This document shows positions 3,612 to 20,922 of a DNA stretch of 31,861 nucleotides, one piece after another. The stretch lies in contig JBKJMP010000268.1 of NCBI GenBank assembly GCA_046596395.1, positions 1 to 31,861 of the forward strand, read 5' to 3'. Position 1 is the stretch's first letter. Each line of letters begins with the position of its first letter. Source of the stretch: Gemmatimonadaceae bacterium. GTDB taxonomy: Bacteria > Gemmatimonadota > Gemmatimonadetes > Gemmatimonadales > Gemmatimonadaceae. The position numbers and the translations under genes were made by a program. Below the pieces are notes generated by a model. That model ran no database searches and was not told the DNA's origin. It was given only the letters and a program-made list of their open reading frames with translations.

Positions 3612-3612
3612 C

Positions 3613-4310: not shown

Positions 4311-4341
4311 ATAGGACTGTCATGATTCGTGCTCGCGTCAC
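4311..4341 (-). promoter_or_regulatory. Putative ECF-sigma promoter for the DUF4382 gene (GTGAC-N17-CAGTC)
   Basis: The minus strand reads GTGACGCGAGCACGAATCATGACAGTCCTAT, with the same spacing as three other copies. Confidence 0.6.
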
Positions 4342-4419
4342 CGACATTCTTACATGTGCGATGCGTCACAACGCGCGTGCGCGATGAGTCACGAGATCAT
4401 GGCCTCACGCGTGCGTTAT

Positions 4420-4449
4420 GTGACCAATGCCAGCAATCCAACAGTCAAT
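4420..4449 (+). promoter_or_regulatory. Putative autoregulatory ECF promoter (GTGAC-N17-CAGTC)
   Basis: GTGAC at 4420-4424, a 17-nt spacer, CAGTC at 4442-4446 and ATG at 4455. No RBS is evident, so the transcript may be leaderless. Confidence 0.6.
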
Positions 4450-4454
4450 CCAGC

Positions 4455-5012
4455 ATGGCCGAGCTGCACCATCAACCGGACGCCGTCGTCGTTGCCGCCG
4501 TCCTCGGCGGCGACACCTATGCGTACAGCGTGCTACTCTCGCGATACCGCGACGCGTACACGCGCTACGCCGTCCGCATGCTCGGCAACCGCGAGGATGC
4601 GGACGATGCGTTGCAGTCCACATTCATTCGTGCGTTTCGCAACCTCGCCAAATGCCAGGATCCGGCGCGGTTCGGTGCGTGGCTCTACCAGATTGCGATC
4701 AATGAGTGCAGGAGCCTCGGCGCGCGGCGCGGGAGGCGCGAGCTGCGCATGGTGCGGGACGATGCGGAGATGGAGCGAGCGCTTGGCATGACGCACGCCG
4801 ACCCCGCCGCCGACATGCGCGACGAGATCCAGCGCGCGCTGGACCAGCTCGACGTCGACCAGCGAGAAGCGTTCGTGCTGAAACACATCGAAGAGTTGAG
4901 CTACGACGAGATGGCGGCGATCACTGGCGTCGGTGTCTCTGCACTGAAGATGCGGGTCAAGCGGGCCTGCGATCACCTGCGGGAGTTGCTGAAGGAGGCG
5001 TACCATGAGTGA
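4455..5012 (+). CDS. ECF-subfamily sigma-70 RNA polymerase sigma factor
   Basis: Region 2 (DADDALQSTFIRAFRNL, FGAWLYQIAINECR) and region 4 (LDVDQREAFVLKHIEELSYDEMAAITGVGVSALKMRVKRA). The start is chosen at MAELHH. Confidence 0.92.
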   Translation: MAELHHQPDAVVVAAVLGGDTYAYSVLLSRYRDAYTRYAVRMLGNREDADDALQSTFIRAFRNLAKCQDPARFGAWLYQIAINECRSLGARRGRRELRMVRDDAEMERALGMTHADPAADMRDEIQRALDQLDVDQREAFVLKHIEELSYDEMAAITGVGVSALKMRVKRACDHLRELLKEAYHE

Positions 5013-5634
5013 CGGAGACGACGAGAAGGAGCGACGCTTCATCGAACGCATCGCGGGACCAATGCGCGCGCCGGAGCGGTTGCGTGACAGCTTCGAGGCG
5101 CGGGTGATGCTGGCCGCTCACGATGCCGTGGGCGCTGGCGAGCCGCGCGAGCCGGTGACGTCGCTCGCATGGTGGCGACGTCCGCGCACCGTCTCCGTGT
5201 CGCCGATGCGGGCGATGGCGATGGCGGCGAGCGTGCTCGTGGCTGTTCTACTCGCGGGTGCGGGCGTGGGCCGGCTCACGCACGATCAGCCGATGGCATC
5301 GCCGGCCATCGCGCTCGAGCGACGCGTGGACACCGTGCACGTCGTCCGGTTCATGCTCACCGACGCCCAGGCGACGTCGATCGTGCTCGTCGGCGACTTC
5401 AACGACTGGTCGAAGAGCGCCACGCCACTGACCCGGACGCCCAACGGCAAGGCATGGATCGCGACCGTCAACCTCCCCGCCGGGCGGCACGAGTATGCGT
5501 TTCTCGTGCGCGACGATGCCGGTGAGCACTGGGTGCCCGATCCCTTCGCCACCACCGTGCACGACGACTTCGGGACGGTCAGCTCGCTCGTGCACGTCGG
5601 GAGCGAGTCGCAGCGGACGTCGAGCTCCAGCTAG
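5005..5634 (+). CDS. Putative anti-sigma factor: N-terminal cytoplasmic segment, one TM helix, C-terminal CBM48 / isoamylase-early-set (AMPK-type glycogen-binding) domain
   Basis: 8-bp overlap with the sigma gene. TM segment AMAMAASVLVAVLLAGAGV. VRFMLT, SIVLVGDFNDW, WIATVNLPAGRHEYAFLV and WVPDP match the E-set/CBM48 pattern. Confidence 0.8.
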   Translation: MSDGDDEKERRFIERIAGPMRAPERLRDSFEARVMLAAHDAVGAGEPREPVTSLAWWRRPRTVSVSPMRAMAMAASVLVAVLLAGAGVGRLTHDQPMASPAIALERRVDTVHVVRFMLTDAQATSIVLVGDFNDWSKSATPLTRTPNGKAWIATVNLPAGRHEYAFLVRDDAGEHWVPDPFATTVHDDFGTVSSLVHVGSESQRTSSSS

Positions 5635-5640
5635 GCCACA

Positions 5641-6783
5641 TTGCGATCGGTCGTCGTACTCGCGCTCGTCGTCACCGCTGGTGCAACGCTCGCACCCGGC
5701 GCGCGTGCGCAGCGCGTCACGTCGTCGGTCGCCTTCACAGGCGCGAATGTCCGGTATGCGGACTCCGTCGGCGTCTCCGCGCTGACGTTGACGCCGAGCG
5801 TGCAGTTGGATCGCGACTTCTCGACGCTCGGAGCGTCGGTGTCGTACTCGCAGCTCGCGTCGGGCGGATGGACGATGCAGGGCGCCGGCAGCGGCTCCCT
5901 CTTCACGTCGCCGGTGCGCGGGCTGACCGGTGAGCTCTCGGCGTTGCTCGGCGGGAGCACCCACGGCGACGGAACGCGCACCGGGCAGTCGATCGCCTCG
6001 GCGCGCGCGCACGTCATTACGCCAGCGCGCGGCGCGTGGATCGGCGCGGGCGCCGGCGGCACCTGGGACGGCGACCGCTGGCGCACGCTGCTCCAGGGCG
6101 AGGCAGCGGCATGGACGCGCATCGGCGAGCGCGCGACCGCGCTCGCGACAGTCACGCCCGTCATGGTGGACGACTCCAGTCGCTACACGGATGCGGAGGT
6201 CGCCGCGCACTGGGATGGCAGCACGTTGGAGGTCGGCGCCTCTGTCGGGGCGCGGAGCGGCAGGCCACGTGGCGCACTGTCGGGCGCGGGCGCGTGGGGT
6301 GGCGTGAGCGTCGCCGCATGGCTCAGGTCCGGGATTGCGGTCGTCGGCAGTGCGGGCGTGTATCCCGCCGACCTCACGCAGGGCTATCCCGACGGACGCT
6401 ACCTGTCGCTCGGCGTGCGACTCGGGCAACGGGCCCGGCGTCCCGTCGTCGAACCGGTGCCGCTCGTCGCGCGAGAGCGTGATGTCGCCGCTCTCGCGGG
6501 TGTGGAGCGATTCACGACCACTGCCGCTGCGGGCGGCCGGCGCACGATACGCGTGCTTGCTCCAGACGCGCGCACTGTGGAGGTGAACGGCGACTTCACG
6601 CGCTGGACGCCCATTGGCCTCACGAAGCTCGCTGGTGGATGGTGGTCAGCCACCCTCCCCCTCGCGACGGGGACATACCAGATGAATGTGAGGACGGACG
6701 GTGGCGCGTGGATCGTTCCGCCGGGACTCCCGCTGCTGAAGGATGAATTCGGGGGCAGCGTGGGCCTGCTCGTCATACCGTAA
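5641..6783 (+). CDS. Exported beta-barrel-like protein with C-terminal CBM48-like domain
   Basis: TTG start and signal peptide. About 250 aa of alternating Gly/aromatic amphipathic strands, then VEVNGDFTRW, WWSATLPLATGTYQMNVRTDGGAWIVPPG and DEFGGSVGLLVIP. Confidence 0.75.
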   Translation: MRSVVVLALVVTAGATLAPGARAQRVTSSVAFTGANVRYADSVGVSALTLTPSVQLDRDFSTLGASVSYSQLASGGWTMQGAGSGSLFTSPVRGLTGELSALLGGSTHGDGTRTGQSIASARAHVITPARGAWIGAGAGGTWDGDRWRTLLQGEAAAWTRIGERATALATVTPVMVDDSSRYTDAEVAAHWDGSTLEVGASVGARSGRPRGALSGAGAWGGVSVAAWLRSGIAVVGSAGVYPADLTQGYPDGRYLSLGVRLGQRARRPVVEPVPLVARERDVAALAGVERFTTTAAAGGRRTIRVLAPDARTVEVNGDFTRWTPIGLTKLAGGWWSATLPLATGTYQMNVRTDGGAWIVPPGLPLLKDEFGGSVGLLVIP

Positions 6784-7356
6784 GGCTGTGACGCGCGCGC
6801 GCAACGCAGCAGTCCAATAGATGAAGGCAATTCATTGCAGTTCCCCGAGGGACCCATCATGCGATACACACATCTGCGTTCTGCGCTCGCACTCGCGAGC
6901 TTGTTGATTGGATCGGCAGCATCCCAGGCATCCGCACAGACGCCGGCTGAGGATCCATCCGCTCGGCTGCGGCAGGTGTTGCCGGCGGATGTCGCGGCGC
7001 GCGTGCTTGCACGCATCGCCGACGCGCGCGCGCGTGACCTGCCCGCGGCAGCACTCGAGAATCGCGCGCTGAAGTTCGCCGCGAAGGGAGTAGCGCCGGC
7101 CGACATCGAGAAGTCGGTCACCGAGCAGGGCGTCCGCATGCTCAATGCTCGGACTGCGCTTACACAGGGTCGCGCGGGACGTCCTGCGCACGACGAGATC
7201 GAGGCAGGTGCCGAGGCGCTCCGGAAGGGTGTCAGTGGCGCTGGCGTTGCGGCGCTCGCGCACAGTGCTCCGTCCGGACGTTCGCTCGCCGTACCGTTGT
7301 TCGTGGTGGGCAGCTTGGTTGATCGGGGGCTGCCGTCCGATGCTGCGCTGTCGCGC
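6634..7356 (+). repeat. Copy 1 of a ~720-bp diverged direct repeat (copy 2 at 20700-21418)
   Basis: Colinear by manual alignment; 26 mismatches counted in the first 150 nt (about 83% identity). Confidence 0.9.
6788..6818 (+). promoter_or_regulatory. Putative ECF promoter (GTGAC-N17-CAGTC) upstream of the 6859 gene
   Basis: GTGAC at 6788-6792 and CAGTC at 6810-6814. It is conserved in the paralogous copy at 20854-20884. Confidence 0.6.
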
Positions 7357-7596
7357 GTGCAGGAGCGCCTTCAGGCGCGGGTGTCCGACGCGGATCTGCA
7401 GGGATTGCCGGCGGGTGTCAGTGCGGGTGAAGTGCGCAAACCGGCGCAGACCGGCCGCGACGTCGCGGCCACGAAGCGCCCAGCGGACGCTGGAGCGGGT
7501 CCAGACCGACGTGGGAATGGCCCGCCCGCTGGCGTACCGGCAAATGGTGGCGCGGGCGCGCGTCCGACCGGGGCCGGCAAAGGCCGTAAGCCCTGA
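6859..7596 (+). CDS. Secreted alpha-helical hypothetical protein with Gly/Pro-rich basic tail
   Basis: GAGG RBS at 6847-6850 and a signal peptide ending ASA-Q. A diverged second copy at 20923 has mostly synonymous changes, which supports the reading frame. Confidence 0.8.
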   Translation: MRYTHLRSALALASLLIGSAASQASAQTPAEDPSARLRQVLPADVAARVLARIADARARDLPAAALENRALKFAAKGVAPADIEKSVTEQGVRMLNARTALTQGRAGRPAHDEIEAGAEALRKGVSGAGVAALAHSAPSGRSLAVPLFVVGSLVDRGLPSDAALSRVQERLQARVSDADLQGLPAGVSAGEVRKPAQTGRDVAATKRPADAGAGPDRRGNGPPAGVPANGGAGARPTGAGKGRKP

Positions 7597-7605
7597 CGAG
7601 CGGGA

Positions 7606-9186
7606 TCACTCCTTCGACAGCGAGAACGTGAACGGCATCTCGAGTAACTGCCGTACCTTCTTCCCACCAACCTGCGCCGGCTGAAAGCGCATCGCTGACA
7701 CAGAGGTCTCCACCGCCTGCGTGAACAGCGCGTGATCCGACCGGAGCACCTTGAGGCTCCCCGGCATGATCTCGCCGTTCACGTCGATGACGAACTGCGC
7801 GACGACTTCGCCCTCCACCTTCGCCCGCCGTAGCTCGTCCGGATAGCGCATCAGCCCAGTGCCCGGGATCTGGCGCGCCTCGCTATTCGGAGGTACGTCG
7901 CTGGACGGCTTGATCACTGAGGCAGGGCGCGCCGGTGACGGCGGACCGCCCAACGAGAACGTGAACGGCTGCTGCACCAGCTGCCGCACTCTGACCCCAC
8001 CGACCTCAGCGGGCGAAAAGCGCATGTTCGGCAACGCGGCCTCGACCGCTGCGGTGAAGTCGCCGTGGTTGGACTGCAACACCTTGAACGTCCCGGGCTC
8101 GATCGCGCCGGTCGCATCGACCACGAACTGCGCGAGCACCTCGCCCTGCACGCTCGCGCTGCGCAGGGCGTCGGGATAGCGCACCCTCCCCGTTCCCGCC
8201 ACCTGCTGCGCCTGTTTCTCCACTTGATACTCGAAGTACGGCTGCTTCGCGACGGTGGGACTCTCTGGCGCGATAATCGGGCGCGGCGCGGCGACGTCGG
8301 CAATACGCGAGTTGCACGCGGCGGCGCCCCCGACGACCGTCGCCGCAATGGCGACGACGATCCTCGTTCGACGACCGCTGGCAGAGATGGGACGCATGGC
8401 GGCAATCCTCCGTTCGAGATGTGAGCGAGACGCAGCGAGCATCGGCGCAAACGGCGTCATGCCCTGCCGCTGAGAGATGAGCAGGAGAAGCTTTCCGTAC
8501 TGCGCCGTGTTACCCTCGGTGGCGAGGACGCGTGCGTCGCAATCCACTTCGAGTGCGAGACGCGCGCGACGCACGATCCACCAGAGCGGCACGTTCCACG
8601 GCACGAGCGCGAGCGCAACGGCTGATCCGATCACGACCCACGGATCACGCGCGCGGCAGTGCTCCTCCTCGTGTCGCAGCACGAGGCGCCGCAACGGCGC
8701 CGCAAGCTCGAGCATCGCCGAAGGCAGCAGCACCCTCGGCGCCACCACACCGACGACTGCGGGACCGACGTCCGCATTCACGAGCACCGGCACGCCATCG
8801 ACGACGCGCGGTTCGCTCGCGCGCCGGATGCGTGCGAGTTGTGCGTAGGCGCGCGCGAGGCGAATCACGAGCACAACGCTCAACATCGCCCACATCACCA
8901 GCAATAGGGTGTCGAGTTGCGCGGACCACGCGAATGTCGCCGGGATGCCGCCCGGCACGGCCTGAATCGACGGCAGCGCCACGACCGCTGATTGCGCCGA
9001 GCTGTCCGGAAGCAGGCGTCGCGCGATCGGAGCGATCACCGGCCACGTTGCTCCGGCCGCCAGGGCCACGAGCCACGGCGCACGCGTCGGACGGCGCACG
9101 GCGCGCAACGCCACTTCCGCGCACAATGCGGTCACCCCGAGCAGGGCGGTGAACACCAGCGCGGAGAACATCCACGCGGCGATCAT
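7606..9186 (-). CDS. BlaR1/MecR1-type M56 metallopeptidase fused to two TonB C-terminal domains
   Basis: TM N-terminus, GPAVVG...PRVLLP, zinc motif HEEEH, PWNVPLWW and EVDCD. Two TonB_C-like repeats follow (YPDALR..VQGEVLAQFVVD / YPDELR..VEGEVVAQFVID), each ending in PFTFSL. Confidence 0.88.
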   Translation of the reverse strand: MIAAWMFSALVFTALLGVTALCAEVALRAVRRPTRAPWLVALAAGATWPVIAPIARRLLPDSSAQSAVVALPSIQAVPGGIPATFAWSAQLDTLLLVMWAMLSVVLVIRLARAYAQLARIRRASEPRVVDGVPVLVNADVGPAVVGVVAPRVLLPSAMLELAAPLRRLVLRHEEEHCRARDPWVVIGSAVALALVPWNVPLWWIVRRARLALEVDCDARVLATEGNTAQYGKLLLLISQRQGMTPFAPMLAASRSHLERRIAAMRPISASGRRTRIVVAIAATVVGGAAACNSRIADVAAPRPIIAPESPTVAKQPYFEYQVEKQAQQVAGTGRVRYPDALRSASVQGEVLAQFVVDATGAIEPGTFKVLQSNHGDFTAAVEAALPNMRFSPAEVGGVRVRQLVQQPFTFSLGGPPSPARPASVIKPSSDVPPNSEARQIPGTGLMRYPDELRRAKVEGEVVAQFVIDVNGEIMPGSLKVLRSDHALFTQAVETSVSAMRFQPAQVGGKKVRQLLEMPFTFSLSKE

Positions 9187-9563
9187 GACGCGCCCTCGGC
9201 ATCAGCCGCATCCGTCAGCTGCTTCGCGAGCCGCTGCAACTCCTCGGCAGTGAGGTCGTGATCGTCCACGAGTTGCGCGAGCAGCGCTTCCGGGGAACCG
9301 AGGAAGAGGGTGTCGATGAGGCGACGCACGGCGCGGCGTTGTGCGGCGCGCTGCTTCACCTTCGGGAAGTAGCGATGCGCGCGCCCTTCCTCGGCGCGTC
9401 GCACGAATCCCTTCGCCTCGAGATTGCGAAGGATGGTGAGCACCGTCGTGTACGCGAGCGGCGTCCCGAGCGTCGCCTGAACTTCGGTGACGGTCCCCGA
9501 GCCCTGCTGCCAGAGCACGGTCATGATGTCGAGCTCGCGCTCGCCGAGTGATGCAGTATCCAC
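9183..9563 (-). CDS. BlaI/MecI/CopY-family repressor
   Basis: LGERELDIMTVLW, LAYTTVLTILRNLEAKGFVRR, GRAHRY. GTG start with GGAG RBS; 4-bp overlap with the M56 gene. Confidence 0.93.
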   Translation of the reverse strand: MDTASLGERELDIMTVLWQQGSGTVTEVQATLGTPLAYTTVLTILRNLEAKGFVRRAEEGRAHRYFPKVKQRAAQRRAVRRLIDTLFLGSPEALLAQLVDDHDLTAEELQRLAKQLTDAADAEGAS

Positions 9564-9575
9564 GCGTCCACTCCG

Positions 9576-9639
9576 AAGTACTAAGTGGATAGTAGGCTAG
9601 CACCGACTCGCGGTGCTGTCAACTATCCACATAGTACTT
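9576..9639 (-). promoter_or_regulatory. Sigma70 promoter of the blaI-like operon flanked by two inverted operator boxes
   Basis: On the minus strand TTGACA (9622-9617) is 17 nt from TAGCCT (9599-9594). Boxes TACTA-N6-TAGTA (9579-9594) and AACTA-N6-TAGTA (9621-9636) form an 18-bp inverted repeat with 1 mismatch. Confidence 0.75.
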
Positions 9640-9673
9640 GGCGACCTGTTCGAGGGCGCACGGGGAGGGACAT

Positions 9674-10039
9674 CTACACCCGCATCGCCACCCCGAGTTC
9701 CCCAGCGATCTTCTTCAGCCGGCGATCCATCGTCCACAGCGTCGCCAGTGGCGTAATCGCGGAAGCGGCCAGCAGGTGCACATCGATGTATCCAACCCCG
9801 CGCCCCATCAGCCGACGCTCGTCGATGAGTGCCATCGCCTCCTCGTGCGAGGCCTCCTGCGCGAGTGGGAGATCGGACAACAGCTCGAGTACCGCACGGC
9901 GCTTCGCAATGTTGCCGCACGCCAGCTCTCCCAGCACCATGGAGTGCACGAGCACGTCGCCCTCATCCAGCGCCACCTCGAGGCCCGTTCGGCCAGTGCG
10001 TAAGTGCTCGATCCAAACCGACGTATCGACGAGGATCAC
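9674..10039 (-). CDS. vapC: VapC-family PIN-domain toxin
   Basis: MILVDTSVWIEHL, VLGELACG, GIG-like GVGYIDVHLLAS and LWTMDRRL. Confidence 0.92.
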   Translation of the reverse strand: MILVDTSVWIEHLRTGRTGLEVALDEGDVLVHSMVLGELACGNIAKRRAVLELLSDLPLAQEASHEEAMALIDERRLMGRGVGYIDVHLLAASAITPLATLWTMDRRLKKIAGELGVAMRV

Positions 10040-10233
10040 GGCTCGGCGACACGACGCCTGGGAACGTCCACCAGCTTCGGCTCGCTGCCGGCAAGACGGG
10101 CAAGCCGACGCGCACTCTCCCGTGCGATCAGGGCACGCAGCCCCTCGTGAAGGAGCGCGGTCCGCTCTGTGATCCCCGTGAGTTTCCCCGCTCTTGCCAG
10201 CAGCGCATCATCGAGGTTCAACGTCGTCCGCAT
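10036..10233 (-). CDS. vapB: VapB-family antitoxin (DUF2191 type)
   Basis: MRTTLNLDDALLARA..LTGITERTALLHEGLRALIARESARRLA; 4-bp overlap with the toxin gene. Confidence 0.92.
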   Translation of the reverse strand: MRTTLNLDDALLARAGKLTGITERTALLHEGLRALIARESARRLARLAGSEPKLVDVPRRRVAEP

Positions 10234-10249
10234 TGCTTGCCACTCTCAT

Positions 10250-10275
10250 GTTGAGGCATAAAAACATGCATCAAC
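10250..10275. promoter_or_regulatory. Inverted repeat upstream of vapB, probable TA autorepression operator
   Basis: GTTGAGGCAT-N6-ATGCATCAAC, 10-bp arms with 1 mismatch. Confidence 0.55.
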
Positions 10276-10332
10276 TGATGCCTCGAGACAAGGGCCCCTT
10301 CCTCGACCTCGAATCGCTCGGCGCGCCCGGGT

Positions 10333-10806
10333 TCACGGCTTGGCGGTGCGAACCGCCGTCATCGTCAGCTCGATCCGGGCGCCCCGCGCCAGTTCCCTCA
10401 CGGCCACGGTCGAGCGCGTCGGGAGCGGTTGGACCGTGAAGTACTCCCGGTAGACCTCGTTGAACCGCGCGAAGTCCGACATGTCCGCGAGGTACGCCGT
10501 CACGGCAACCACGTTCGTCAGGTCCATCTCGGCGCTCGTGAGCACCGTCTGGAGATTGGCCATCACCTGGCGGAACTCTGCTTCGAACCCGCCCGACACG
10601 AGTTGCCCGGTGACGGGATTGCCGCCGGTGGCTCCAGACATGTACAGCGTGTTCCCGACGAGGATCGCCGGCGACAGCGGTGACGGCGTCGGCTTGTAGT
10701 CAGGCGGCTGAATCACCCGCTTCGCGGGCAGCGCCTGTGCGTGCATCGATCCGCCGACTGCGCCGAGGAGTGAGACCACGACCACGAGCGACCGAGTGAT
10801 GTTCAT
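10333..10806 (-). CDS. Rid (YjgF/YER057c/UK114) family protein with N-terminal signal peptide
   Basis: SPAILVGNTLYMSG, LADMSDFARFNEVYREYF, PTRSTVAV (conserved Arg) and LARGARIELT. ATG at 10806 overlaps the upstream stop (ATGA); an alternative ATG is at 10812. Confidence 0.88.
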   Translation of the reverse strand: MNITRSLVVVVSLLGAVGGSMHAQALPAKRVIQPPDYKPTPSPLSPAILVGNTLYMSGATGGNPVTGQLVSGGFEAEFRQVMANLQTVLTSAEMDLTNVVAVTAYLADMSDFARFNEVYREYFTVQPLPTRSTVAVRELARGARIELTMTAVRTAKP

Positions 10807-11969
10807 TTGCATTTGCCAACTGGCCCGGAGGCGAGGTAAAGGACGTTTGGCGCTTCGGAGCGAGCGACGGCGATGTCGGGACGACCGTCCTTGTCAAAGT
10901 CCCCCACGGCGATACCGTATGCCGTGCCCTTCGAATCGCCGAAGGAGACCGGAGTGAATGTCATGCCGGTGCCGTCGTTGAAATAGACGGTGGACAGCGC
11001 CGTGACATTGCCAACAATGAAGTCCGCCGTCCCGTCGCAGTTCAAGTCACCGACGGTCAACGCATACGGGACGATCGCCATGTCGCCAATGGGAACGGGT
11101 GGCACAAAGGTCCCGTCGCCGCGGCCAAAATGGATCGCGATGCCGGTCGCCTCGTCAATCGCCACGACGTCGAGCTTGCCGTCATTGTTGAAGTCCGCCG
11201 CCTCGGCGACCCGGAACTGCGCGTTGGCCGGACCAAACGGCATGCTGGTCATGTGCGCGAGGTCGCCGTGTTTCGTGCCGAGGTACAGTCGGCTCTGGCC
11301 ACCGTTTCGGTGCGGCACGAGCAGGTCGACGATACCGTCGCCATCGACGTCGGCCGCCGCAATCGTCGTGGCCGGTTCCGGCGAGAAACCGATGCAGTCG
11401 GCACCGAACTGTCCGTTGCCCTGGTTCAGGCAGATGTAGTTGAAGCCCGGCGTCCGACCGTGGCGGTTGGCCGCGATGATGTCCGGCCGCCCGTCGCCGT
11501 TCATGTCGGCCACGGTGGCGTTCCGCATGGGCCACTCAGGCCTGCCGTAGGTGGACCCGACGGTGAAGTGGCCCTTTCCATCATTCAGGTACACGAGTTT
11601 TGGACTCGGCGCGTCATTGCTGATGACGACATCGAGGTCGCCGTCGCCATCGAGATCCACGAGGCGCCCTGAATACGACTTGTCGGACGCGGTACCCAGG
11701 TCGTACGTCTCGCGCACGCCGCCCTTGCCGTCGCCCACGAGCACGCGGTCGACGAGGGGCCAGTGGCGGCCCTTGGCGAGCACGAAGTCGAGGTTGCCGT
11801 CACCGTTCACGTCGCCGAAACTCACGTTGGCCGACGTTTCGGACGTCGTCTCCAGGAGCAGGACCCGGTCATACCGTGGGTATTCGACGATCGCTGCGGC
11901 GTCCATGGCGGCGCTGCCCATGAGGACGGCCCCGGCCATTCCGACTTGCCGCGCAGTACGCACGATCAT
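10803..11969 (-). CDS. FG-GAP/VCBS repeat protein (seven-bladed propeller), probably exported
   Basis: Seven DxxxDGxxD motifs (DVNGDGNLD, DLDGDGDLD, DMNGDGRPD, DVDGDGIVD, DFNNDGKLD, DLNCDGTAD, DFDKDGRPD). The start is uncertain; 11969 avoids overlap with the upstream gene. Confidence 0.85.
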   Translation of the reverse strand: MIVRTARQVGMAGAVLMGSAAMDAAAIVEYPRYDRVLLLETTSETSANVSFGDVNGDGNLDFVLAKGRHWPLVDRVLVGDGKGGVRETYDLGTASDKSYSGRLVDLDGDGDLDVVISNDAPSPKLVYLNDGKGHFTVGSTYGRPEWPMRNATVADMNGDGRPDIIAANRHGRTPGFNYICLNQGNGQFGADCIGFSPEPATTIAAADVDGDGIVDLLVPHRNGGQSRLYLGTKHGDLAHMTSMPFGPANAQFRVAEAADFNNDGKLDVVAIDEATGIAIHFGRGDGTFVPPVPIGDMAIVPYALTVGDLNCDGTADFIVGNVTALSTVYFNDGTGMTFTPVSFGDSKGTAYGIAVGDFDKDGRPDIAVARSEAPNVLYLASGPVGKCK

Positions 11970-12000
11970 GCGTTCGCTCCGGGCCAATCGACTTGATGGG

Positions 12001-12966: not shown

Positions 12967-13167
12967 CCGGTCAGTGGCAATGGGTTGGGCTGGTGCGCGA
13001 GGAGGGCCACGGCAGTCATCGGAACGCTCGGCGGTGGTGGCCAGTACGTCAAGCGCGCCGGCTCACCATCGGCGGCGTCGATGCCACCATCGCAACTGGC
13101 CCGCGCCTCAACGCGGCTGCAGCTTTCGCGGATGCCACACTCCACTGTTGCCAGGGATCGAACTGCC

Positions 13168-14766: not shown

Positions 14767-14862
14767 GGTGGAGAGGAGCTGTCGCTGACGACACAGCGGC
14801 ACCGCGTGTGGAGGGATATTTCCATCTGGCGCCGGGTGGCGTCGAGTGCAATGCTTGTCGGC

Positions 14863-15210
14863 ATGCGGCGCATACTCCTCGGCCTGCTGCTCCTTGTTGG
14901 TTCGGCTGCTTGTGACGCGTACGAGCTGGCGCCGCTCCCGCTCGACATCACCGTGACCACCAATACGCCGACGGCGGCGATCGGCGATTCCGTCAGCTTC
15001 GTTGTGGTCGTTCAAGGTGGATCCCTCATCGGCGTCGAAGCGGACTATGGCGATGGCAGCGGTGACGTGTTCGGCACCAGCGGCGCACGAACGGCCACGA
15101 TCACGTTCAAGCACGCGTACGCGGCGCGCGGGTCATACTCGGTCGGTTTCACGGTCACCGACGCGACGGCGGGACAGAAGACGGGCAAGGTTGTCGTGAC
15201 CGTTGCCTGA
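14863..15210 (+). CDS. PKD-domain lipoprotein
   Basis: Lipobox GSAAC. DYGDG...HAYAARGSYSVGFTVTD matches the PKD consensus. Confidence 0.78.
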   Translation: MRRILLGLLLLVGSAACDAYELAPLPLDITVTTNTPTAAIGDSVSFVVVVQGGSLIGVEADYGDGSGDVFGTSGARTATITFKHAYAARGSYSVGFTVTDATAGQKTGKVVVTVA

Positions 15211-15313
15211 GCACATATTGGCGACCGGCGGCCCGCAGTGACCCGTACGTCCCCCACCGGGTGTGCCAGAACAAGCAGAAAACCTGATCTCCTTCCCGCA
15301 CCAGGAGTCGGCT

Positions 15314-18300
15314 ATGACGGCATTCCCGTGTCGTTGCTTCCCAACGCCCGCGCGACCATGGACTTGTCTGGCCCTGGCGCTTCTCGCCAGCGCAGGCGAC
15401 CTCGCCGCCCAGACACCCACGGCGACGATCGGTGGGCGCGTCACCGGTGAGAACGGTCAGCCGATCGCCGGCGCGCAGGTCCGTCTCGTCGGCACCGGCC
15501 TGGGAACGCTGACCGCAGACAACGGCCGCTACACCATCGTCAACGTGCCCGTGGCGCAATACCGGATACGAGCGCAGATGCTCGGCCATCGCCCAGTGGA
15601 GCGTCCATTGACGCTCGGTGCTGGCCAGACGGCGACGGAGGACTTCGCGCTCAGGAAGCAGGTGCTCGAGCTCGACGCCCTCGTCGTCACCGGAACGGCC
15701 GGTGCGGCGCGCCAGCGCGAAGTGGGGAATGCGGTGTCGCAGATCGACATGTCGAAGGTACAGGAGCCGCCGCAGAACATTGGACAGCTGCTGCAGGGGC
15801 GCGCGCCGGGCATGACCGTGATGTCCAGCTCCGCCGGCGCCGGCAGCGGCTCCATGATCCGTCTTCGCGGCAATGTCAGCGTCGCCATGAGCAACCAGCC
15901 GCTCATCTACGTGGACGGCGTGCGGCTGCGCAGCGACGGCTACCAGCGCAACGTGCCGCCCACCGGGTCCGATCTGCGGAGCGGCAATGACATCGCGAGC
16001 CCCCTGAACGACATCAACCCGAACGACATTGAGCGAATCGAAATCATCAAGGGCGCGGCTGCGGCAACGCTGTACGGCACGGAAGCGGCTGCCGGCGTGA
16101 TTCAGATCTTCACCAAGACCGGACGCGCGGGCAAGCCGCAGTGGTCCATGCAGGTGGATGGCGGCTTCGCGCGCGCGCTTCCGTTCGGACCCGAGCCGAC
16201 CACGGCGCCCGCGGGAGACTCCATTCCGAAGCTGTACCGCGACAGCTTTCCCGACCGGTTCGCCGGCCTGCCCGATCGCGGCGTGTCGCGCGCGGGCGGG
16301 ACGTCGGCATACCTCTTCATCGACCCGTGGCTACGCAAGGGTGTGCAACGTCGCATCTCACTCTCCGTGGGTGGCGGCGGCGAGGCACTGCGCTACTTCG
16401 TGTCGGGCACGGGCAGCAATGAAGACGGCGTGCTGCCGAACGACAACGAGAAGCGGAAAGTGATTCGCGGAAACTTCTCGTTCTCACCACTCGCAAACCT
16501 GATCTTCAACTGGAATACCTCGTACACGAAGGACCTCATCTCGAACACGGCCGCCGGCAACAACGCGCATGGTCTCACACTGAATGCGTTCCGGCGCGAT
16601 CGCAACTACGCGTCGAACGACCGGCCCGAAGTCGTCGGATTGCTGCTCAACCAGCAGCTCACGAGCGACATCGACCACCTCATCACGGGCGGCACGATCA
16701 ACTGGAGTCCGACGGCGAACATCACGAATCGCTTCACGGTGGGCTACGATCTCGCGCAGATCGCGAACCGCAATCTGCGACCGTTCGGCTTCGTGTCGGC
16801 GCCGGGTGGGATCATCTCCAACCGCGAGAACTCGTACCAGAATCTCACCTTCGACTATGCCGGCAGCTACGCGCGGCAACTCGCGAGCAGCCTCAAGTCC
16901 ACGTGGTCGTGGGGCGGGCAGGCCGTCACGACGGAGAACCGTGAGACGTCGGCGTACGGGCAGGATTTCCCCGGGCCGGGCAATCCCACCGTGACCAGTG
17001 CCGGCACCACGCTCGGCTTCGAAGAGCGCTCGCGCATCGTCAACGCGGGTCTCTTTGGCCAGGCGATCTTCGATGCCAAGGACAAGTACTTCCTCACGCT
17101 TGGCGCGCGCGTCGATGGCAACAGCGCGTTCGGCTCGAAGTTCGGGTTGCAAACGTATCCGAAAGCGAGCGTGTCGTGGGTCGCGTCGGAAGAGAGCTTT
17201 TGGCCGTCGTGGAATCCCGAGATGAAGTTCCGCGCCGCGCTTGGTCAGTCGGGTCGCGCGCCCGGCGCATTCGACGCGATTCGCACGTGGGAAAATCCGC
17301 CGAGTGGATGGGGCGGACTGCCGGCGTTCTTCCCGCGCAGCGTCGGGAATCCGGAGTTGGGTCCGGAGCGCACCACGGAGCTGGAACTGGGCTTCGACGG
17401 CGCGCTGTTCGGTGACCGCATGAGCACGTCCGTCACGTGGTACAATCGCAACATCGACAGGGCGCTCTTCAACACCCGCCAGATTCCGTCGCTCGGGTTC
17501 CTCAACTCGCAACTGCAGAACGTCGGAGCCATGTCGAGCAAGGGACTGGAAGCGTCGCTGACCACCGTCGTGCTGCGCCGGCGACGCTTCGAGTGGTCCG
17601 TCGGCGGCTCGATCTACACCAACGACACGAAGGTCGACACGCTCGGCGACGCGGCGGACTTTTCGATCGGCAACTTCGGCTGGATCATGAAGGGACAAGC
17701 GATCCCGATGATCCGCACCGACTTCTGCCTCGCGAATCCGAGCGAAAAGGCGGCACCGATCGTCATCTCGCCGACGAAAGCCAACCCGAACGCGTGCAAC
17801 TACGGTCCAAACCTTCCGCCGCACACGTACGGCGTGAACACGGAGCTCAAGCTCCCGTACGACATCCGCTTCAACGCGCGTGGGGAGTACATGGGCGGCC
17901 ACTACATGTACGATGGCGCGGCATGGAATGCCGTGACTCGCTCGGTACGGTGGCCGGGATGCTACAGCTTCTACGCGCTTCAGGAGACGGGCCGCATCGC
18001 GGAAGCCACCGCGTTGCAGACGTCGCGGTGCACGGTGTCGCTCGCGAAGTCGGATTACTTCGTCTATCCGGCGAACTTCTTCAAGCTTCGCAACCTTTCC
18101 GTCGCCGTTCCCATCGCGACGCGCTACCTCGCGGGCGCCACCTCGGCGTACCTCACGCTCTCGGGAAACAATATCTACAAGTGGGTGAACAAGGACTTCC
18201 CAGTGTTTGATCCGGAAACGGGCAACAACGGTGGTTTCGATGCGCAGGTGCGCTCCATTCTCGAGCACGTGCCGCCGCCGGCAACGTACATGGCGTCGCT

Positions 18301-18316
18301 ACGCGTGACCTTCTGA
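15314..18316 (+). CDS. SusC/RagA-family TonB-linked outer-membrane transporter
   Basis: AGGAG RBS at 15303-15307. N-terminal carboxypeptidase-regulatory-like domain (IGGRVTGENGQPI), VVTGT, plug (PLIYVDGV; DINPNDIERIEIIKGAAAATLYG) and terminal LRVTF. Confidence 0.93.
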   Translation: MTAFPCRCFPTPARPWTCLALALLASAGDLAAQTPTATIGGRVTGENGQPIAGAQVRLVGTGLGTLTADNGRYTIVNVPVAQYRIRAQMLGHRPVERPLTLGAGQTATEDFALRKQVLELDALVVTGTAGAARQREVGNAVSQIDMSKVQEPPQNIGQLLQGRAPGMTVMSSSAGAGSGSMIRLRGNVSVAMSNQPLIYVDGVRLRSDGYQRNVPPTGSDLRSGNDIASPLNDINPNDIERIEIIKGAAAATLYGTEAAAGVIQIFTKTGRAGKPQWSMQVDGGFARALPFGPEPTTAPAGDSIPKLYRDSFPDRFAGLPDRGVSRAGGTSAYLFIDPWLRKGVQRRISLSVGGGGEALRYFVSGTGSNEDGVLPNDNEKRKVIRGNFSFSPLANLIFNWNTSYTKDLISNTAAGNNAHGLTLNAFRRDRNYASNDRPEVVGLLLNQQLTSDIDHLITGGTINWSPTANITNRFTVGYDLAQIANRNLRPFGFVSAPGGIISNRENSYQNLTFDYAGSYARQLASSLKSTWSWGGQAVTTENRETSAYGQDFPGPGNPTVTSAGTTLGFEERSRIVNAGLFGQAIFDAKDKYFLTLGARVDGNSAFGSKFGLQTYPKASVSWVASEESFWPSWNPEMKFRAALGQSGRAPGAFDAIRTWENPPSGWGGLPAFFPRSVGNPELGPERTTELELGFDGALFGDRMSTSVTWYNRNIDRALFNTRQIPSLGFLNSQLQNVGAMSSKGLEASLTTVVLRRRRFEWSVGGSIYTNDTKVDTLGDAADFSIGNFGWIMKGQAIPMIRTDFCLANPSEKAAPIVISPTKANPNACNYGPNLPPHTYGVNTELKLPYDIRFNARGEYMGGHYMYDGAAWNAVTRSVRWPGCYSFYALQETGRIAEATALQTSRCTVSLAKSDYFVYPANFFKLRNLSVAVPIATRYLAGATSAYLTLSGNNIYKWVNKDFPVFDPETGNNGGFDAQVRSILEHVPPPATYMASLRVTF

Positions 18317-18323
18317 GGATCCC

Positions 18324-19667
18324 ATGACAATTCAACGGAAGCGCCTCATTCAGAGGCCGATCGTGAAGGCTCTCCGCAGCTACGCGTTGGTCCTCGTCCT
18401 GCTCGGCCTGTACACGGCTTGCAATACGGAGGTCGTCAACCAGGGGCGATTCGAGGATGCATACCTCAACGACCGAAACGCCGAGGTGGCCCTGGTCAAC
18501 GGCGCGGCACGGGCAATTTCGCAGGGCGTGAACTGGATCAGCTACACGGGCGCCGCCATCACGCGTGAAATCCATCCCGCTGGATCGACCGGAAGCTTCG
18601 GCATCACGACACTCTGGCAGAACGGCGAGCTCCGTGTCGACGACGGCGATCTGGATACCCACTGGGAGCAGGCGCAGCGCGGCCGCTGGATCGCCGAGGA
18701 GGCCGTCCGGCGAATCGAAGCGGCGCAGCCACCTGTCGCTGGCGAGCTGCAAACCCTTGCCGCCTACAACAACGTGCGGCAGCTCGCGTACATCTACGCC
18801 GGGTACGCGAATCGCATCCTGGGCGAGAACATGTGTGAGTCGACGATCGACGGGGGGCCCGCCGGACCGAACACGGTGTTCTTCCAGCGCGCCGAGAGTC
18901 TCTTCACCAAGGCGATTGGCGTCACGGGTGGTACGGCCGCGACCATGGCGGCGCAGCTGACGCGAGCCTATGCCGGCCGAGCCGCCGTGCGCGTCCATCT
19001 CGGGAACTGGACCGGAGCTGTCGCCGATGCCGCACAGGTGCCCATCGGCTTCGTCTTCAACATGCCGTATTTCAACATCGGTGACGACGCACAGCGCAAT
19101 CGCATTTTCTGGGCGTCAGGCAATACGAGAGAAAGCGGGTCGGCGTATCGAGCGCACACGCAGTGGAGCACCTGGTACTACAACTACAGGGTGGCGACCA
19201 GCGATCCACGTGTTCCGATCACGGTCACGACACTCCTGGGCGATGCCGCCATTGAATGCTGTGGCAGGGTGCCGTGGTATCCGGAAGCAAAGCACTCCGC
19301 ATCAGCGTCGCCCATTCGACTCTCGAGCGGGCGTGAGATGCGGCTGATCGAGGCCGAGGCCAAGTTGCGCAACAGTGATCTCGCGGGAGCGATGACATCC
19401 ATCAATCTCGTTCGCACCAACGCGGCAGCGACTGCGATCACCGCCGTCGACATCACCGATGGCTGGCGGTTGCTCAAGCGCGAGCGCGGGATCGAGCTGT
19501 GGCTGGAAGCGCGACGACTGGGCGACATGCGTCGCTGGAAGGCGGGCAACACGCCTGGCGCGCTCGACCCACTCGAGCAGCCAGGTACGGGGTCACATAT
19601 GTCCAAGCAGGACCTCTGCTTCCCCATCGCGGTCTCGGAGCGTCAGACGAACCCCAACTTACGCTAA
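18324..19667 (+). CDS. SusD/RagB-family lipoprotein
   Basis: Lipobox YTAC, 7 bp downstream of susC. EMRLIEAEA and ERGIELWLEARRLGDMRRW are SusD C-terminal motifs. Confidence 0.88.
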   Translation: MTIQRKRLIQRPIVKALRSYALVLVLLGLYTACNTEVVNQGRFEDAYLNDRNAEVALVNGAARAISQGVNWISYTGAAITREIHPAGSTGSFGITTLWQNGELRVDDGDLDTHWEQAQRGRWIAEEAVRRIEAAQPPVAGELQTLAAYNNVRQLAYIYAGYANRILGENMCESTIDGGPAGPNTVFFQRAESLFTKAIGVTGGTAATMAAQLTRAYAGRAAVRVHLGNWTGAVADAAQVPIGFVFNMPYFNIGDDAQRNRIFWASGNTRESGSAYRAHTQWSTWYYNYRVATSDPRVPITVTTLLGDAAIECCGRVPWYPEAKHSASASPIRLSSGREMRLIEAEAKLRNSDLAGAMTSINLVRTNAAATAITAVDITDGWRLLKRERGIELWLEARRLGDMRRWKAGNTPGALDPLEQPGTGSHMSKQDLCFPIAVSERQTNPNLR

Positions 19668-19722
19668 GTCGTACGCTGAAAGGGCAACGACGATACACGG
19701 CACCGTCATTTCTTCGCGAGCA

Positions 19723-20193
19723 CTATGGAGTGAAGCGGAAGAGGGGAATACGGATGTCGGTGCCGGTGCCGCCGGGAGTGCGCTCGCCGCTCCCATTGTC
19801 TTTGAGCGTCTTGTACGCGGCGCTGCCAATGATGAGCGCCGCTCCGCTCAGGAGCGCCCCTGTCCGCAGGCGATCGACCTGTCGCATCTCGAGTTCGATC
19901 AGGTCTGTTCTCGCGATCGACACGCGTTGGTGCAATGTCTCGACGGACGTACCGACGCCGGTGGTCACGACCGTAGGGACTTCGACGATCATGCTCGCCG
20001 GGCCGTTCTCGATCAGTTCTCCGCTCACGAGTCGCGCGTCGGCACTACCGAGGATCGGCACGAGCTTCTCCGCCGCTGCTCCAGAGATGCGAGCGCGAAC
20101 ACTCGTTCCGGGAACGGCAGCCGCCGGCTCGATAGTCGCATACGTGTAGCAGCCCGCACAGAGCGGGAGGACCGCCAGGAGGAGGCGGCGCAT
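19723..20193 (-). CDS. Hypothetical lipoprotein
   Basis: MRRLLLAVLPLCAGC lipobox followed by YTYATIEP, with a hydrophobic segment near the C-terminus. An alternative start is at 20208. Confidence 0.7.
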   Translation of the reverse strand: MRRLLLAVLPLCAGCYTYATIEPAAAVPGTSVRARISGAAAEKLVPILGSADARLVSGELIENGPASMIVEVPTVVTTGVGTSVETLHQRVSIARTDLIELEMRQVDRLRTGALLSGAALIIGSAAYKTLKDNGSGERTPGGTGTDIRIPLFRFTP

Positions 20194-20699
20194 TGACGGA
20201 TTGGGCATCGTACGACGTGACCCTCGCCGCAATGATGTAGCCGAATGCGCAAAAACATCGGCTGCAGGTACGAGGTCCCCAGCGTCTGGGCACACTGCTG
20301 GCTCACGGACTCGCGGTGGCCACCAGAGGGCGGCACGTGGAAGAAGATGCGCTGCTCCGGATACGGCGAGCAGGCAGGCAAGATCACGGATGGACTGCTT
20401 CATGGACGGCTCCTGTCGCACGGCGCTGCCCTCATTCTACGCAGTTCGCTCTGCGGCGCCATGACCGCTCGTGTCCTCGATCCCGCCAGGCGTAAGCTAC
20501 GGTCGATCTGGCCAGCCGCGGCCGCGGTAAAGATCGCGCATGCCGCCTTGTTCGTGGTGGGGTGCAGCGGCTCGCGGACCCCGAACAGTCGGAGGCAGCT
20601 GTTAATGAACAGTTCCACCCAGCTCTCCATGTCGAGCACGCTCGCCGGGACCGGGAAAGCACGGCCTCGACTAACGCGCGGGTTAATGACGAGCCGTCG

Positions 20700-20849
20700 G
20701 GTGGATGGTGGTCGGTCACCCTGCCCGTCGCCGCGGGCGCGCATCAGATGAATGTGAGGATGGATGGCGGCGCGTGGATCGTTCCGCCGGGACTGGCGTC
20801 GCTCAAGGATGAATTCGGGGGCATCGTCGGCCTGCTCGTTGCTCCGTGA
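20700..20849 (+). pseudogene. 3' fragment of a paralog of the barrel-CBM48 gene
   Basis: GGWWSVTLPVAAGAHQMNVRMDGGAWIVPPGLASLKDEFGGIVGLLVAP* aligns to 6634-6783. The upstream part is missing. Confidence 0.85.
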
Positions 20850-20853
20850 ATCT

Positions 20854-20884
20854 CTGACGCGCGCGCGCAACGCAACAGTCCAAT
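20854..20884 (+). promoter_or_regulatory. Retained copy of the ECF promoter motif (CTGAC-N17-CAGTC)
   Basis: CTGACGCGCGCGCGCAACGCAACAGTCCAAT has 2 mismatches to 6788-6818. Confidence 0.55.
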
Positions 20885-20922
20885 AGATGACGGCATCAGG
20901 GCAGTTGCCCGAGGGATCCATC

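What the first reader, a model, noticed from the sequence alone, without database searches (positions are those of the whole stretch)
4311..20884. Self-evident ECF regulon: (G/C)TGAC-N17-CAGTC occurs four times with identical spacing
The motif is at 4341-4315 (minus, DUF4382), 4420-4446 (plus, 8 nt before the sigma ATG), 6788-6814 (plus, helical protein) and 20854-20880 (decayed copy). The spacers of the first three are unrelated, yet both boxes and the spacing are fixed, and each points at a gene of the module. ECF sigmas commonly autoregulate through bipartite promoters. This ties the divergent DUF4382 gene to the system and gives a testable target motif. A weaker GTGAC-N19-GTC lies at 4369-4343 (minus).
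Basis: partly seen in the sequence, partly recalled or inferred. Interest (0 to 1): 0.8.

Follow-up and report, generated by a model that had tools for sequence, protein, structure and literature searches.

The report
Conserved ECF sigma promoter motif
A two-box DNA motif (GTGAC, 18 bases, AGTC) that precedes three transcription units of a small sigma/anti-sigma gene cluster in a soil Gemmatimonadaceae genome is a real promoter signal kept across the bacterial family, most likely read by the cluster's own alternative sigma factor; this is the ordinary, expected design of such systems.

Summary
In detail: (G/C)TGAC-N17-CAGTC occurs four times at the stated coordinates, against 0.21 expected. 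Only three sites are independent. The fourth lies in an 85%-identical, frameshifted 720-bp duplicate of the third site's surroundings.

- **Same genus:** in three syntenic loci all three sites recur with unrelated spacers (12 of 12 sites).
- **Family level:** in 35 Gemmatimonadaceae loci GTGAC-N19-GTC lies upstream of the sigma gene in 30 of 35 (four more have N18). It lies upstream of the helical-protein gene in 32 of 32 and next to DUF4382 in 8 of 11. Elsewhere in these loci the pattern occurs only 14 times in 316 kb.
- **Unbiased word count:** TGAC-N18-AGTC comes out as the top bipartite word.

The family consensus is tGTGAC-N16-G-n-AGTC; the C of CAGTC is specific to the genus. An in-frame ATG or GTG sits exactly 8 nt after GTC in 24 of 30 sigma genes, so the sigma mRNA is probably leaderless. 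No further convincing targets were found in this 72%-complete genome. No transcript data could be found, so sigma dependence and start sites remain inferred.

This is a new member of a known kind (an autoregulated ECF promoter) and of moderate interest. The scan had not noted it on other DNA.

The parts
4315..4341 (-). Promoter motif P_DUF4382 (GTGAC-N17-CAGTC), pointing at the DUF4382 gene. Predicted transcription start about 4306-4309, giving a leader of about 65-70 nt with a Shine-Dalgarno sequence (AAGGAGA) before the ATG at 4242.
   Evidence: Conserved on the same strand and in the same position in L031, L032 and L033. A motif precedes a relocated DUF4382 in L053 and L065-L067.
4420..4446 (+). 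Promoter motif P_sigma (GTGAC-N17-CAGTC). The ATG of the sigma gene starts 8 nt after it, at 4455, so the predicted transcription start is at or next to that ATG (leaderless mRNA).
   Evidence: Conserved upstream of sigma in 30 of 35 loci, plus 4 with N18. An in-frame start codon lies at the same offset in 24 of 30 loci.
6788..6814 (+). Promoter motif P_hel (GTGAC-N17-CAGTC), located 5 nt after the stop codon of the CBM48 barrel-like gene and 44 nt before the ATG of the helical-protein gene. Predicted transcription start about 6820-6823.
   Evidence: Present in the corresponding intergenic region in 32 of 32 loci.
20854..20880 (+). Relic copy of P_hel (CTGAC-N17-CAGTC) inside the decayed duplicate; 25 of 27 bases are identical to site 3.
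20700..21418 (+). Decayed segmental duplicate of 6634-7356. It covers the 3' end of the CBM48 gene, the intergenic promoter and the 5' two-thirds of the helical-protein gene. Identity is 85.0%, with 5 indels, frameshifts and a stop codon.
4343..4369 (-). Weak GTGAC-N19-GTC match. It lacks the conserved A before GTC and the conserved G two bases further upstream, and it is not conserved in the orthologous loci. Probably chance.
3613..4242 (-). DUF4382 lipoprotein-like gene (209 aa), a target of the divergent promoter.
   Evidence: Pfam PF14321, E = 5.6e-24.
4455..5012 (+). ECF sigma factor gene (185 aa) with sigma-70 region 2 and region 4 only.
   Evidence: Pfam PF04542 and PF08281. The nearest solved relatives are AlgU, sigma-E, CnrH and SigW.
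5005..5634 (+). Membrane anti-sigma factor gene (209 aa). It overlaps the sigma gene by 8 nt (ATGAGTGA). The protein has a short cytoplasmic N-terminus, one transmembrane helix, and a CBM48/AMPK1_CBM domain outside the membrane.
   Evidence: Pfam. Predicted complex of residues 1-75 with sigma scores 0.77 against 0.00 for the best control.
5641..6783 (+). Exported 380-aa protein with a C-terminal CBM48 domain. It begins 6 nt after the anti-sigma stop codon, so it is presumably the third gene of the sigma operon.
   Evidence: Pfam. Synteny in 113 of 301 family genomes.
6859..7596 (+). Exported helical-repeat protein (245 aa) with no Pfam family, transcribed from its own promoter P_hel.

Best explanation
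GTGAC-N18-AGTC (in this genus GTGAC-N17-CAGTC) is the -35/-10 promoter of the ECF sigma factor encoded at 4455-5012. At rest, the sigma is held by the co-translated membrane anti-sigma factor (5005-5634), whose CBM48-type domain lies outside the cytoplasm. When an unknown envelope or glycan signal releases it, sigma-RNA polymerase fires three promoters. P_sigma drives the operon of sigma, anti-sigma and the CBM48 barrel-like protein, which gives positive autoregulation, and its mRNA begins at the start codon (leaderless). P_hel drives the exported helical protein. The divergent P_DUF4382 drives the DUF4382 lipoprotein. The fourth motif copy is a dead relic inside a decayed duplicate. What is shown: the motif, its conservation, its orientation, its spacing and its linkage to these genes. 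What is inferred: which sigma reads it, where transcription starts, that the sigma mRNA is leaderless, and what the signal is.
For: -: four matches against 0.21 expected.
- the genes are an ECF sigma, a CBM48 membrane protein, a CBM48 exported protein and DUF4382.
- in the three syntenic loci of the same genus (L031-L033), all three sites recur on the same strands with divergent spacers (12 of 12 sites match GTGAC-N17-CAGTC).
- across 35 Gemmatimonadaceae loci, GTGAC-N19-GTC lies at most 90 nt upstream of sigma in 30 of 35 (four more have N18). It lies in the intergenic region before the helical-protein gene in 32 of 32 and beside DUF4382 in 8 of 11. The rest of these loci hold only 14 hits in 316 kb.
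- positions the search did not constrain are also conserved (A before GTC in 64 of 70, G two bases upstream in 52 of 70, T before GTGAC in 47 of 70).
- an unbiased count ranks TGAC-N18-AGTC first in both upstream sets (21 of 29 and 25 of 32, against at most 5 of 29 in shuffles).
- an in-frame ATG or GTG lies exactly 8 nt after GTC in 24 of 30 sigma genes. In several loci an in-frame stop lies just upstream, which excludes an earlier start codon.
- predicted sigma/anti-sigma complex scores 0.77 against 0.00 for the best of 3 controls. In the tool's calibration this mark was reached by 51 of 78 solved complexes and 2 of 108 mismatched pairs. Contacts fall on sigma region 2 and region 4.
- no sigma-70-type promoter is found in 3500-7800.
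- Published practice: ECF sigmas usually autoregulate, and their promoters are found exactly this way (PMC3817407).
Against: - No transcript data exist for this organism; no RNA run was listed. Transcription starts and sigma dependence are therefore untested.
- The -35 box reads GAC rather than the AAC usual in ECF promoters. The GAC-to-GTC spacing (19 nt) is at the long end of what I recall for ECF promoters (own knowledge).
- The same genomes carry a 57-60% identical paralogous sigma whose own promoter, GTGAC-N18-GTC, is very similar. Recognition by or cross-talk with that paralog cannot be excluded.
- About half of the putative leaderless start codons are GTG. That works in mycobacteria but poorly in E. 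coli (own knowledge).
- In L031 the ATG lies only 4 nt after CAGTC.
- DUF4382 lacks the motif in 3 of 11 loci.
Confidence: 0.85

Rival explanations
1. The motif is a genuine ECF-type promoter, but it is read mainly by another sigma: the paralogous 'type-B' ECF found in the same genomes (in this genome on contig C417), or both sigmas read it. The module would then be part of a cascade or a shared regulon rather than strictly self-regulating.
For: Type-B sigma genes are 57-60% identical and occur in 26 of 26 loci of the same genus and in this genome. Each is preceded by GTGAC-N18-GTC-N8-ATG, with the same -35 box and the same GTC core. Rhodius et al. note that sigma-sigma cascades occur (PMC3817407).
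Against: The two promoter classes differ consistently. Spacing is N19 in 12 of 12 type-A sites of the genus and N18 in 26 of 26 type-B sites. The flank before GTC is CA in type A and GG in type B. The motif always travels with the type-A module across genera. The simplest reading is one sigma per module.
Confidence: 0.08
2. The motif is the operator of a dimeric transcription factor that binds an inverted repeat (TGAC ... GTCA), not a promoter.
For: GAC and GTC are reverse complements. In some sites the match extends to TGAC-N19-GTCA and so scores on both strands.
Against: The boxes are asymmetric. A palindrome would need C two bases after GTC (seen in 7 of 70 sites) and T after GTGAC (10 of 70 sites). 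All sites point toward the downstream gene. The distance to the sigma start codon is fixed at 8 nt. The spacer is unconserved and has the length of a -35/-10 spacer. No candidate DNA-binding regulator other than the sigma travels with the module.
Confidence: 0.04
3. Chance recurrence, or the remains of a repeated or mobile element.
For: Genome-wide, the N17 spacing is not enriched over other spacings. One of the four copies does stem from a duplication.
Against: Spacers and flanks of the three independent sites are unrelated, so they are not copies of one element. The motif is conserved at the same three gene boundaries in dozens of genomes.
Confidence: 0.01

Closest known systems
Autoregulated ECF sigma promoters of the RpoE/SigW/SigX type (E. 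coli sigma-E, B. subtilis sigma-W/X/M, Streptomyces SigR), as catalogued by Staron et al. 2009 and Rhodius et al. 2013 (PMC3817407)
   Same: A bipartite -35/-10 motif with fixed spacing lies directly upstream of the sigma/anti-sigma operon and of a few linked envelope genes. The -10 box is built on a GTC core. The sigma has regions 2 and 4 only, and its best sequence matches are SigX, SigM, SigW and RpoE models. The regulon is compact and sits next to the sigma gene.
   Different: The -35 box is (T)GTGAC rather than the usual GGAAC/TGAAC (GAC instead of AAC). The GAC-to-GTC spacing is 19 nt, one more than the 18 I recall for SigR (own knowledge). No curated equivalog model or named ECF group could be assigned with the tools at hand. 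The main text of the 2021 re-classification names neither this motif nor Gemmatimonadetes, and its supplements could not be read.
Leaderless mRNAs of Actinobacteria and Deinococcus-Thermus, where the transcription start coincides with the start codon (own knowledge)
   Same: The start codon (ATG or GTG) lies at a fixed 8 nt after the -10 GTC. There is no room for a Shine-Dalgarno sequence. The arrangement is conserved in 24 of 30 type-A and 26 of 26 type-B sigma genes.
   Different: Here the inference comes from promoter geometry only, with no 5'-end data. Only the sigma gene is affected: the other two promoters of the module have leaders of about 45-70 nt with Shine-Dalgarno sequences.
Class I transmembrane anti-sigma factors (RseA, RsiW and MucA type)
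   Same: The gene is translationally coupled to the sigma gene. The protein has a short cytoplasmic N-terminal domain, one transmembrane helix and a sensor domain outside the membrane. The predicted complex contacts both sigma region 2 and region 4.
   Different: No Pfam anti-sigma domain is detected. The external domain is a CBM48/AMPK1_CBM carbohydrate-binding-type module, and the next gene carries a second copy of it.

Membership tests
ECF (group IV) sigma-70 factor | Only sigma regions 2 and 4 are present, in a protein of about 180-200 aa | tested here: met
   PF04542 (residues 27-94) and PF08281 (residues 123-175) in a 185-aa protein. TIGR02937 sigma70-ECF scores 85.8 bits against a cutoff of 42.9.
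Autoregulated ECF promoter | A bipartite motif with fixed spacing directly upstream of the sigma gene, conserved among orthologs while the spacer sequence drifts | tested here: met
   found in 30 of 35 loci (plus 4 with N18). It is the top bipartite word in an unbiased count.
Autoregulated ECF promoter | The same motif upstream of other genes linked to the sigma gene (a regulon) | tested here: met
   present before the helical-protein gene in 32 of 32 loci and beside DUF4382 in 8 of 11.
Autoregulated ECF promoter | Canonical AAC in the -35 box | tested here: not met
   the -35 box is the required word GTGAC in all 70 collected sites, so it reads GAC rather than AAC. GTGAC is also the commonest 5-mer in an unconstrained count. 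This is a variant box; the function may be the same.
Autoregulated ECF promoter | A -10 box built on GTC or CGT | tested here: met
   GTC was required by the search, but the preceding A (64 of 70 sites) was not, which gives AGTC. The unconstrained count also returns AGTC.
Autoregulated ECF promoter | Transcription starts about 6-9 nt downstream of the -10 box and depends on the sigma | not testable with these tools
   No RNA run was listed. This needs 5'-end mapping and reporter or in vitro assays.
Class I anti-sigma factor | A recognisable anti-sigma domain (zf-HC2 or RskA type) | tested here: not met
   only the CBM48/AMPK1_CBM domain is detected. There is no hit in the N-terminal 100 residues at E <= 0.01.
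Class I anti-sigma factor | The N-terminal domain binds sigma regions 2 and 4 | tested here: inconclusive
   the model scores 0.77 against 0.00 for the best control, with contacts at sigma residues 19-62 and 118-183. This supports binding but does not show it.
Leaderless mRNA | The 5' end of the transcript coincides with the start codon | tested here: inconclusive
   a start codon lies 8 nt after GTC in 24 of 30 loci. In several loci an in-frame stop lies inside or just before the motif. There are no 5'-end data.

The most novel reading that the evidence does not exclude
Two paralogous ECF modules coexist in the same Gemmatimonadaceae genomes and share the -35 box GTGAC and the -10 core GTC. 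They may be kept apart only by a one-base difference in spacer length (N19 versus N18) and by the two bases before GTC (CA versus GG). Both sigmas would be made from leaderless mRNAs whose translation start is fixed by their own promoter. If true, this would be a natural example of minimal promoter insulation between recently diverged ECF sigmas.
Probability: 0.3. Interest if true: 0.55.

Novelty: new member of a known kind. Interest (0 to 1): 0.35.

Why it matters
It gives a concrete, testable promoter model (tGTGAC-N16-G-n-AGTC) and a defined mini-regulon for an uncharacterised ECF sigma family. That regulon comprises the operon of sigma, CBM48 anti-sigma and CBM48 barrel-like protein, plus an exported helical protein and a DUF4382 lipoprotein. 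The family is widespread in Gemmatimonadaceae, a common but poorly studied soil group. The result links three proteins of unknown function (DUF4382, the helical-repeat protein and the CBM48 barrel-like protein) to one envelope-signalling circuit. It also predicts a leaderless sigma mRNA. The design itself, an autoregulated ECF with a compact local regulon, is textbook.

Tried and rejected
- **Additional regulon members.** GTGAC-N18-AGTC occurs 16 times in the 4.57-Mb, 72%-complete genome, three of them in the module. The others lie inside high-GC3 reading frames or have no plausible gene downstream. G009, G010 and G032 have 9-15 hits each, of which 3 are in the module. None was accepted.
- **Transcript evidence.** Only soil DNA metagenome runs hold the locus. 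No RNA run was listed, and read laying was not used.
- **Weak site 4369-4343 (-).** It is present but lacks the conserved A and G and is absent from the orthologous loci. It was rejected as a conserved promoter.
- **Palindromic-operator reading.** Rejected because the boxes are asymmetric and all sites share one orientation.
- **Named ECF group.** NCBIfam gives only sub-threshold hits to SigX, SigM, SigW and RpoE models. The main text of the ECF re-classification paper mentions neither Gemmatimonadetes, DUF4382, CBM nor GTGAC, and its supplements are not held. Literature searches for the motif and for Gemmatimonas promoters found nothing relevant.
- **Function of the helical protein.** A confident model was obtained (mean pLDDT 81, above 95 over residues 30-185). 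It has no PDB match at E <= 0.001 and only DUF4197-like or uncharacterised AlphaFold DB neighbours. No function was assigned.
- **Sigma-70-type promoters.** None was found in 3500-7800.
- **Motif search in order-level loci.** The strict pattern mostly failed there. Reading the intergenic regions by eye showed the variant GTGAC-N18/19-(A/G)GTCT.


Full report
**Observation.** The expectation is 0.21, and none of 100 dinucleotide-preserving shuffles reaches four. The sequence shows the sigma ATG at 4455, 8 nt after CAGTC. The spacers of the first three sites are unrelated. The weaker GTGAC-N19-GTC at 4369-4343 (-) is also present.

**Genes.**
- 3613-4242 (-): DUF4382.
- 4455-5012 (+): an ECF sigma factor with regions 2 and 4 only.
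- 5005-5634 (+): a 209-aa protein that overlaps the sigma stop codon by 8 nt and carries a C-terminal CBM48/AMPK1_CBM domain.
- 5641-6783 (+): a 380-aa exported protein with a second CBM48 domain.
- 6859-7596 (+): a 245-aa exported protein with no Pfam family.

The organism is a soil Gemmatimonadaceae metagenome-assembled genome of 4.57 Mb in 682 contigs, 72% complete and 66% G+C.

**The fourth site is not independent.** Positions 20700-21418 are a decayed duplicate of 6634-7356, with 85.0% identity over 718 aligned bases and five indels. The duplicate spans the 3' end of the CBM48 gene, the intergenic promoter and part of the helical-protein gene, and it contains frameshifts and a stop codon. 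Its motif differs from site 3 at 2 of 27 positions. This leaves three independent sites.

**Own genome.**
- GTGAC-N17-CAGTC occurs 10 times in the assembly. Other spacings (N13-N22) give 3-12 hits, so the pattern is not enriched genome-wide. However, 3 of the 10 hits lie within 2.5 kb of each other in this module.
- With the family-level core GTGAC-N18-AGTC there are 16 hits, three of them in the module.
- Nine of the other thirteen lie inside long reading frames with high GC3. The remaining four have no credible gene downstream.

As far as this incomplete assembly shows, the regulon is local.

**Orthologs in the same genus.**
- The sigma has one 72%-identical ortholog (G009) and two at about 61% (G010, G032). 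All three share the full gene order: DUF4382 (divergent), then sigma, anti-sigma, the CBM48 protein and the helical protein.
- In all three loci, GTGAC-N17-CAGTC is found upstream of DUF4382 on the opposite strand, immediately upstream of sigma, and in the gap before the helical-protein gene. The spacers differ throughout. Counting the window, that makes 12 of 12 sites.
- Each of these genomes has only 9-15 matches in total.

**Family level.** The N-terminal domain of the 380-aa protein marks the module.
- It is found in 113 of 301 sampled genomes of the family (46 of 77 genera). It is also found in other families of the order and class.
- I examined 35 loci: the window, L031-L033, L036-L063 and L064-L067.
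- Exact GTGAC-N19-GTC lies within 90 nt upstream of sigma in 30 of 35. Four of the rest have N18, and one has a different sigma.
- It lies in the intergenic region before the helical-protein gene in 32 of 32, and next to the DUF4382 start in 8 of 11.
- The remainder of these loci holds 14 matches in 316 kb, counting both strands.
- In several genera DUF4382 sits downstream of the helical-protein gene on the same strand, yet it still has its own motif (L053, L065-L067). In L042, L044 and L058 it has none.
- Positions the search did not constrain are also conserved: A before GTC in 64 of 70 sites, G two bases further upstream in 52 of 70, T before GTGAC in 47 of 70, and C at the second base after GTGAC in 48 of 70. 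The consensus is tGTGACsc-N13-G-n-AGTC-w-a-t.
- The C of CAGTC is fixed only within this genus.
- In more distant loci of the order, the gap before the helical-protein gene carries GTGAC-N18/19-(A/G)GTCT.

**Unbiased check.** To avoid circularity, I counted all bipartite words (4-mer, gap of 12-23, 4-mer) in the regions upstream of the helical-protein gene and of sigma, after removing near-duplicate loci. The top word in both sets is TGAC-N18-AGTC, found in 21 of 29 and 25 of 32 sequences. The maximum for any word in 20 shuffles of the helical-protein set is 5 of 29. GTGAC is the commonest 5-mer in both sets.

**Leaderless sigma mRNA (inferred).**
- In 24 of 30 type-A sigma sites, an ATG or GTG in frame with the sigma homology lies exactly 8 nt after GTC. 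In two more it lies 9 nt after.
- In L049, L054, L057 and L064 the reading frame opens only one base before GTGAC. In L040, L041 and L045 it opens within 20 nt. No earlier start codon is therefore possible in those loci.
- ECF polymerases start roughly 7-10 nt after the GTC of the -10 box (own knowledge of sigma-E-type promoters). A transcript from this promoter would therefore begin at or within a base or two of the start codon, with no room for a Shine-Dalgarno sequence.
- The other two promoters have leaders of about 45-70 nt with Shine-Dalgarno sequences (AAGGAGA before 4242, GAGGGA before 6859).
- The simple scan finds no sigma-70-type promoter in 3500-7800.

**A paralogous module.**
- Most homologs in the genus (57-60% identity) belong to a second, three-gene module without the 380-aa protein: sigma, CBM48 anti-sigma and a helical protein. 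The window's own genome has one on contig C417.
- All 26 such loci carry cTGTGAC-N18-GTC-N8-ATG upstream of sigma and no second site. One of these loci, L026, comes from the unpublished genome G012. Without it the count is 25 of 25.
- The two modules thus share the -35 box, the GTC core and the leaderless geometry. They differ consistently by one base of spacer and in the two bases before GTC.
- Whether this insulates them is unknown.

**Anti-sigma.** A predicted complex of the sigma with residues 1-75 of the downstream protein scores 0.77, against 0.00 for the best of three controls. In the tool's calibration this mark was reached by 51 of 78 solved complexes and 2 of 108 mismatched pairs. 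Contacts fall on sigma residues 19-62 and 118-183, that is regions 2 and 4. The model supports binding but does not show it. A pass may also reflect resemblance to solved ECF/anti-sigma complexes. Pfam finds no anti-sigma domain.

**Rivals.**
- A palindromic operator is unlikely. The boxes are asymmetric, every site points at its gene, and the distance to the sigma start codon is fixed.
- Chance or a repeat element is excluded by the unrelated spacers and the conservation across genera.
- Recognition by the paralogous sigma cannot be excluded without experiments.

**Comparison with what is known.** Finding ECF promoters as conserved bipartite motifs upstream of autoregulated sigma genes is standard practice (Staron et al. 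2009; Rhodius et al. 2013, PMC3817407).
- The sigma resembles the RpoE, AlgU, SigW and SigX type.
- The motif is a variant of that class: GAC replaces AAC in the -35 box, the -10 box is AGTC, and the spacer is rather long.
- I could not assign a named ECF group. The main text of the 2021 re-classification (PMC7826278) mentions neither this motif nor the phylum, and its supplements are not held.
- The helical protein folds confidently as a helical repeat but matches nothing informative.

**Verdict.**
- This is a new member of a known kind: a textbook autoregulated ECF circuit in an unstudied family. The leaderless sigma transcript and the near-identical paralog promoter are the only mildly unusual features.
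- Claims about tallies include the unpublished genomes G012, G067 and G192. No specific site claim other than the single type-B locus L026 rests on them.

Noticed in passing
G000 contig C417:2030-2557 (-) and loci L003-L007, L010-L030: A paralogous three-gene module (sigma, CBM48 anti-sigma, helical protein) whose sigma gene is preceded by cTGTGAC-N18-GTC-N8-ATG in 26 of 26 loci. It has the same -35 box and GTC core as the window's module, one base less spacer, and GG instead of CA before GTC. L026 is from the unpublished genome G012.
   Followed up: partly
L003, L005, L007, L010, L011, L013, L015, L016, L023, L024, L027, L029, L030 and G000:C417, about 100-130 nt upstream of the type-B sigma start: The word CCGTAGATT recurs at a similar distance upstream of the type-B sigma gene. 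It could be a housekeeping -10-like box (TAGATT) or the end of a conserved upstream element.
   Followed up: no
L032, L033 and L036, in the divergent intergenic region between DUF4382 and sigma: The -35 box of the DUF4382 promoter forms half of a short palindrome, GTCAC-N4-GTGA(C/T); in L033 this is a perfect 14-bp palindrome. It could be a binding site for a further regulator or a second back-to-back -35 box. The window itself lacks it.
   Followed up: no
L069, L072-L074, L076, L079-L081, L084 (other families of the order and more distant genera): Here one array holds sigma, anti-sigma, a type-B-like helical protein, the CBM48 barrel-like protein and a type-A helical protein. This suggests that the two modules of Gemmatimonadaceae arose by splitting or duplication of a longer ancestral cluster.
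   Followed up: no
window 6859-7596 (+): The helical protein has a signal peptide, a confidently modelled helical-repeat core (residues 30-185, pLDDT above 95) and a Pro-rich disordered tail. It has no solved-structure match. Its nearest AlphaFold DB clusters are uncharacterised or DUF4197-like.
   Followed up: partly
L006 and L026, upstream of the type-B sigma: Short tandem repeats (8-nt CCGACTGT-like units in L006, CTTCCTAT-like units in L026) lie directly upstream of the sigma promoter.
   Followed up: no
L042, L044 and L058, upstream of DUF4382: In these three loci DUF4382 lies downstream of the helical-protein gene and has no GTGAC...AGTC motif. It may be co-transcribed or under other control.
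   Followed up: partly
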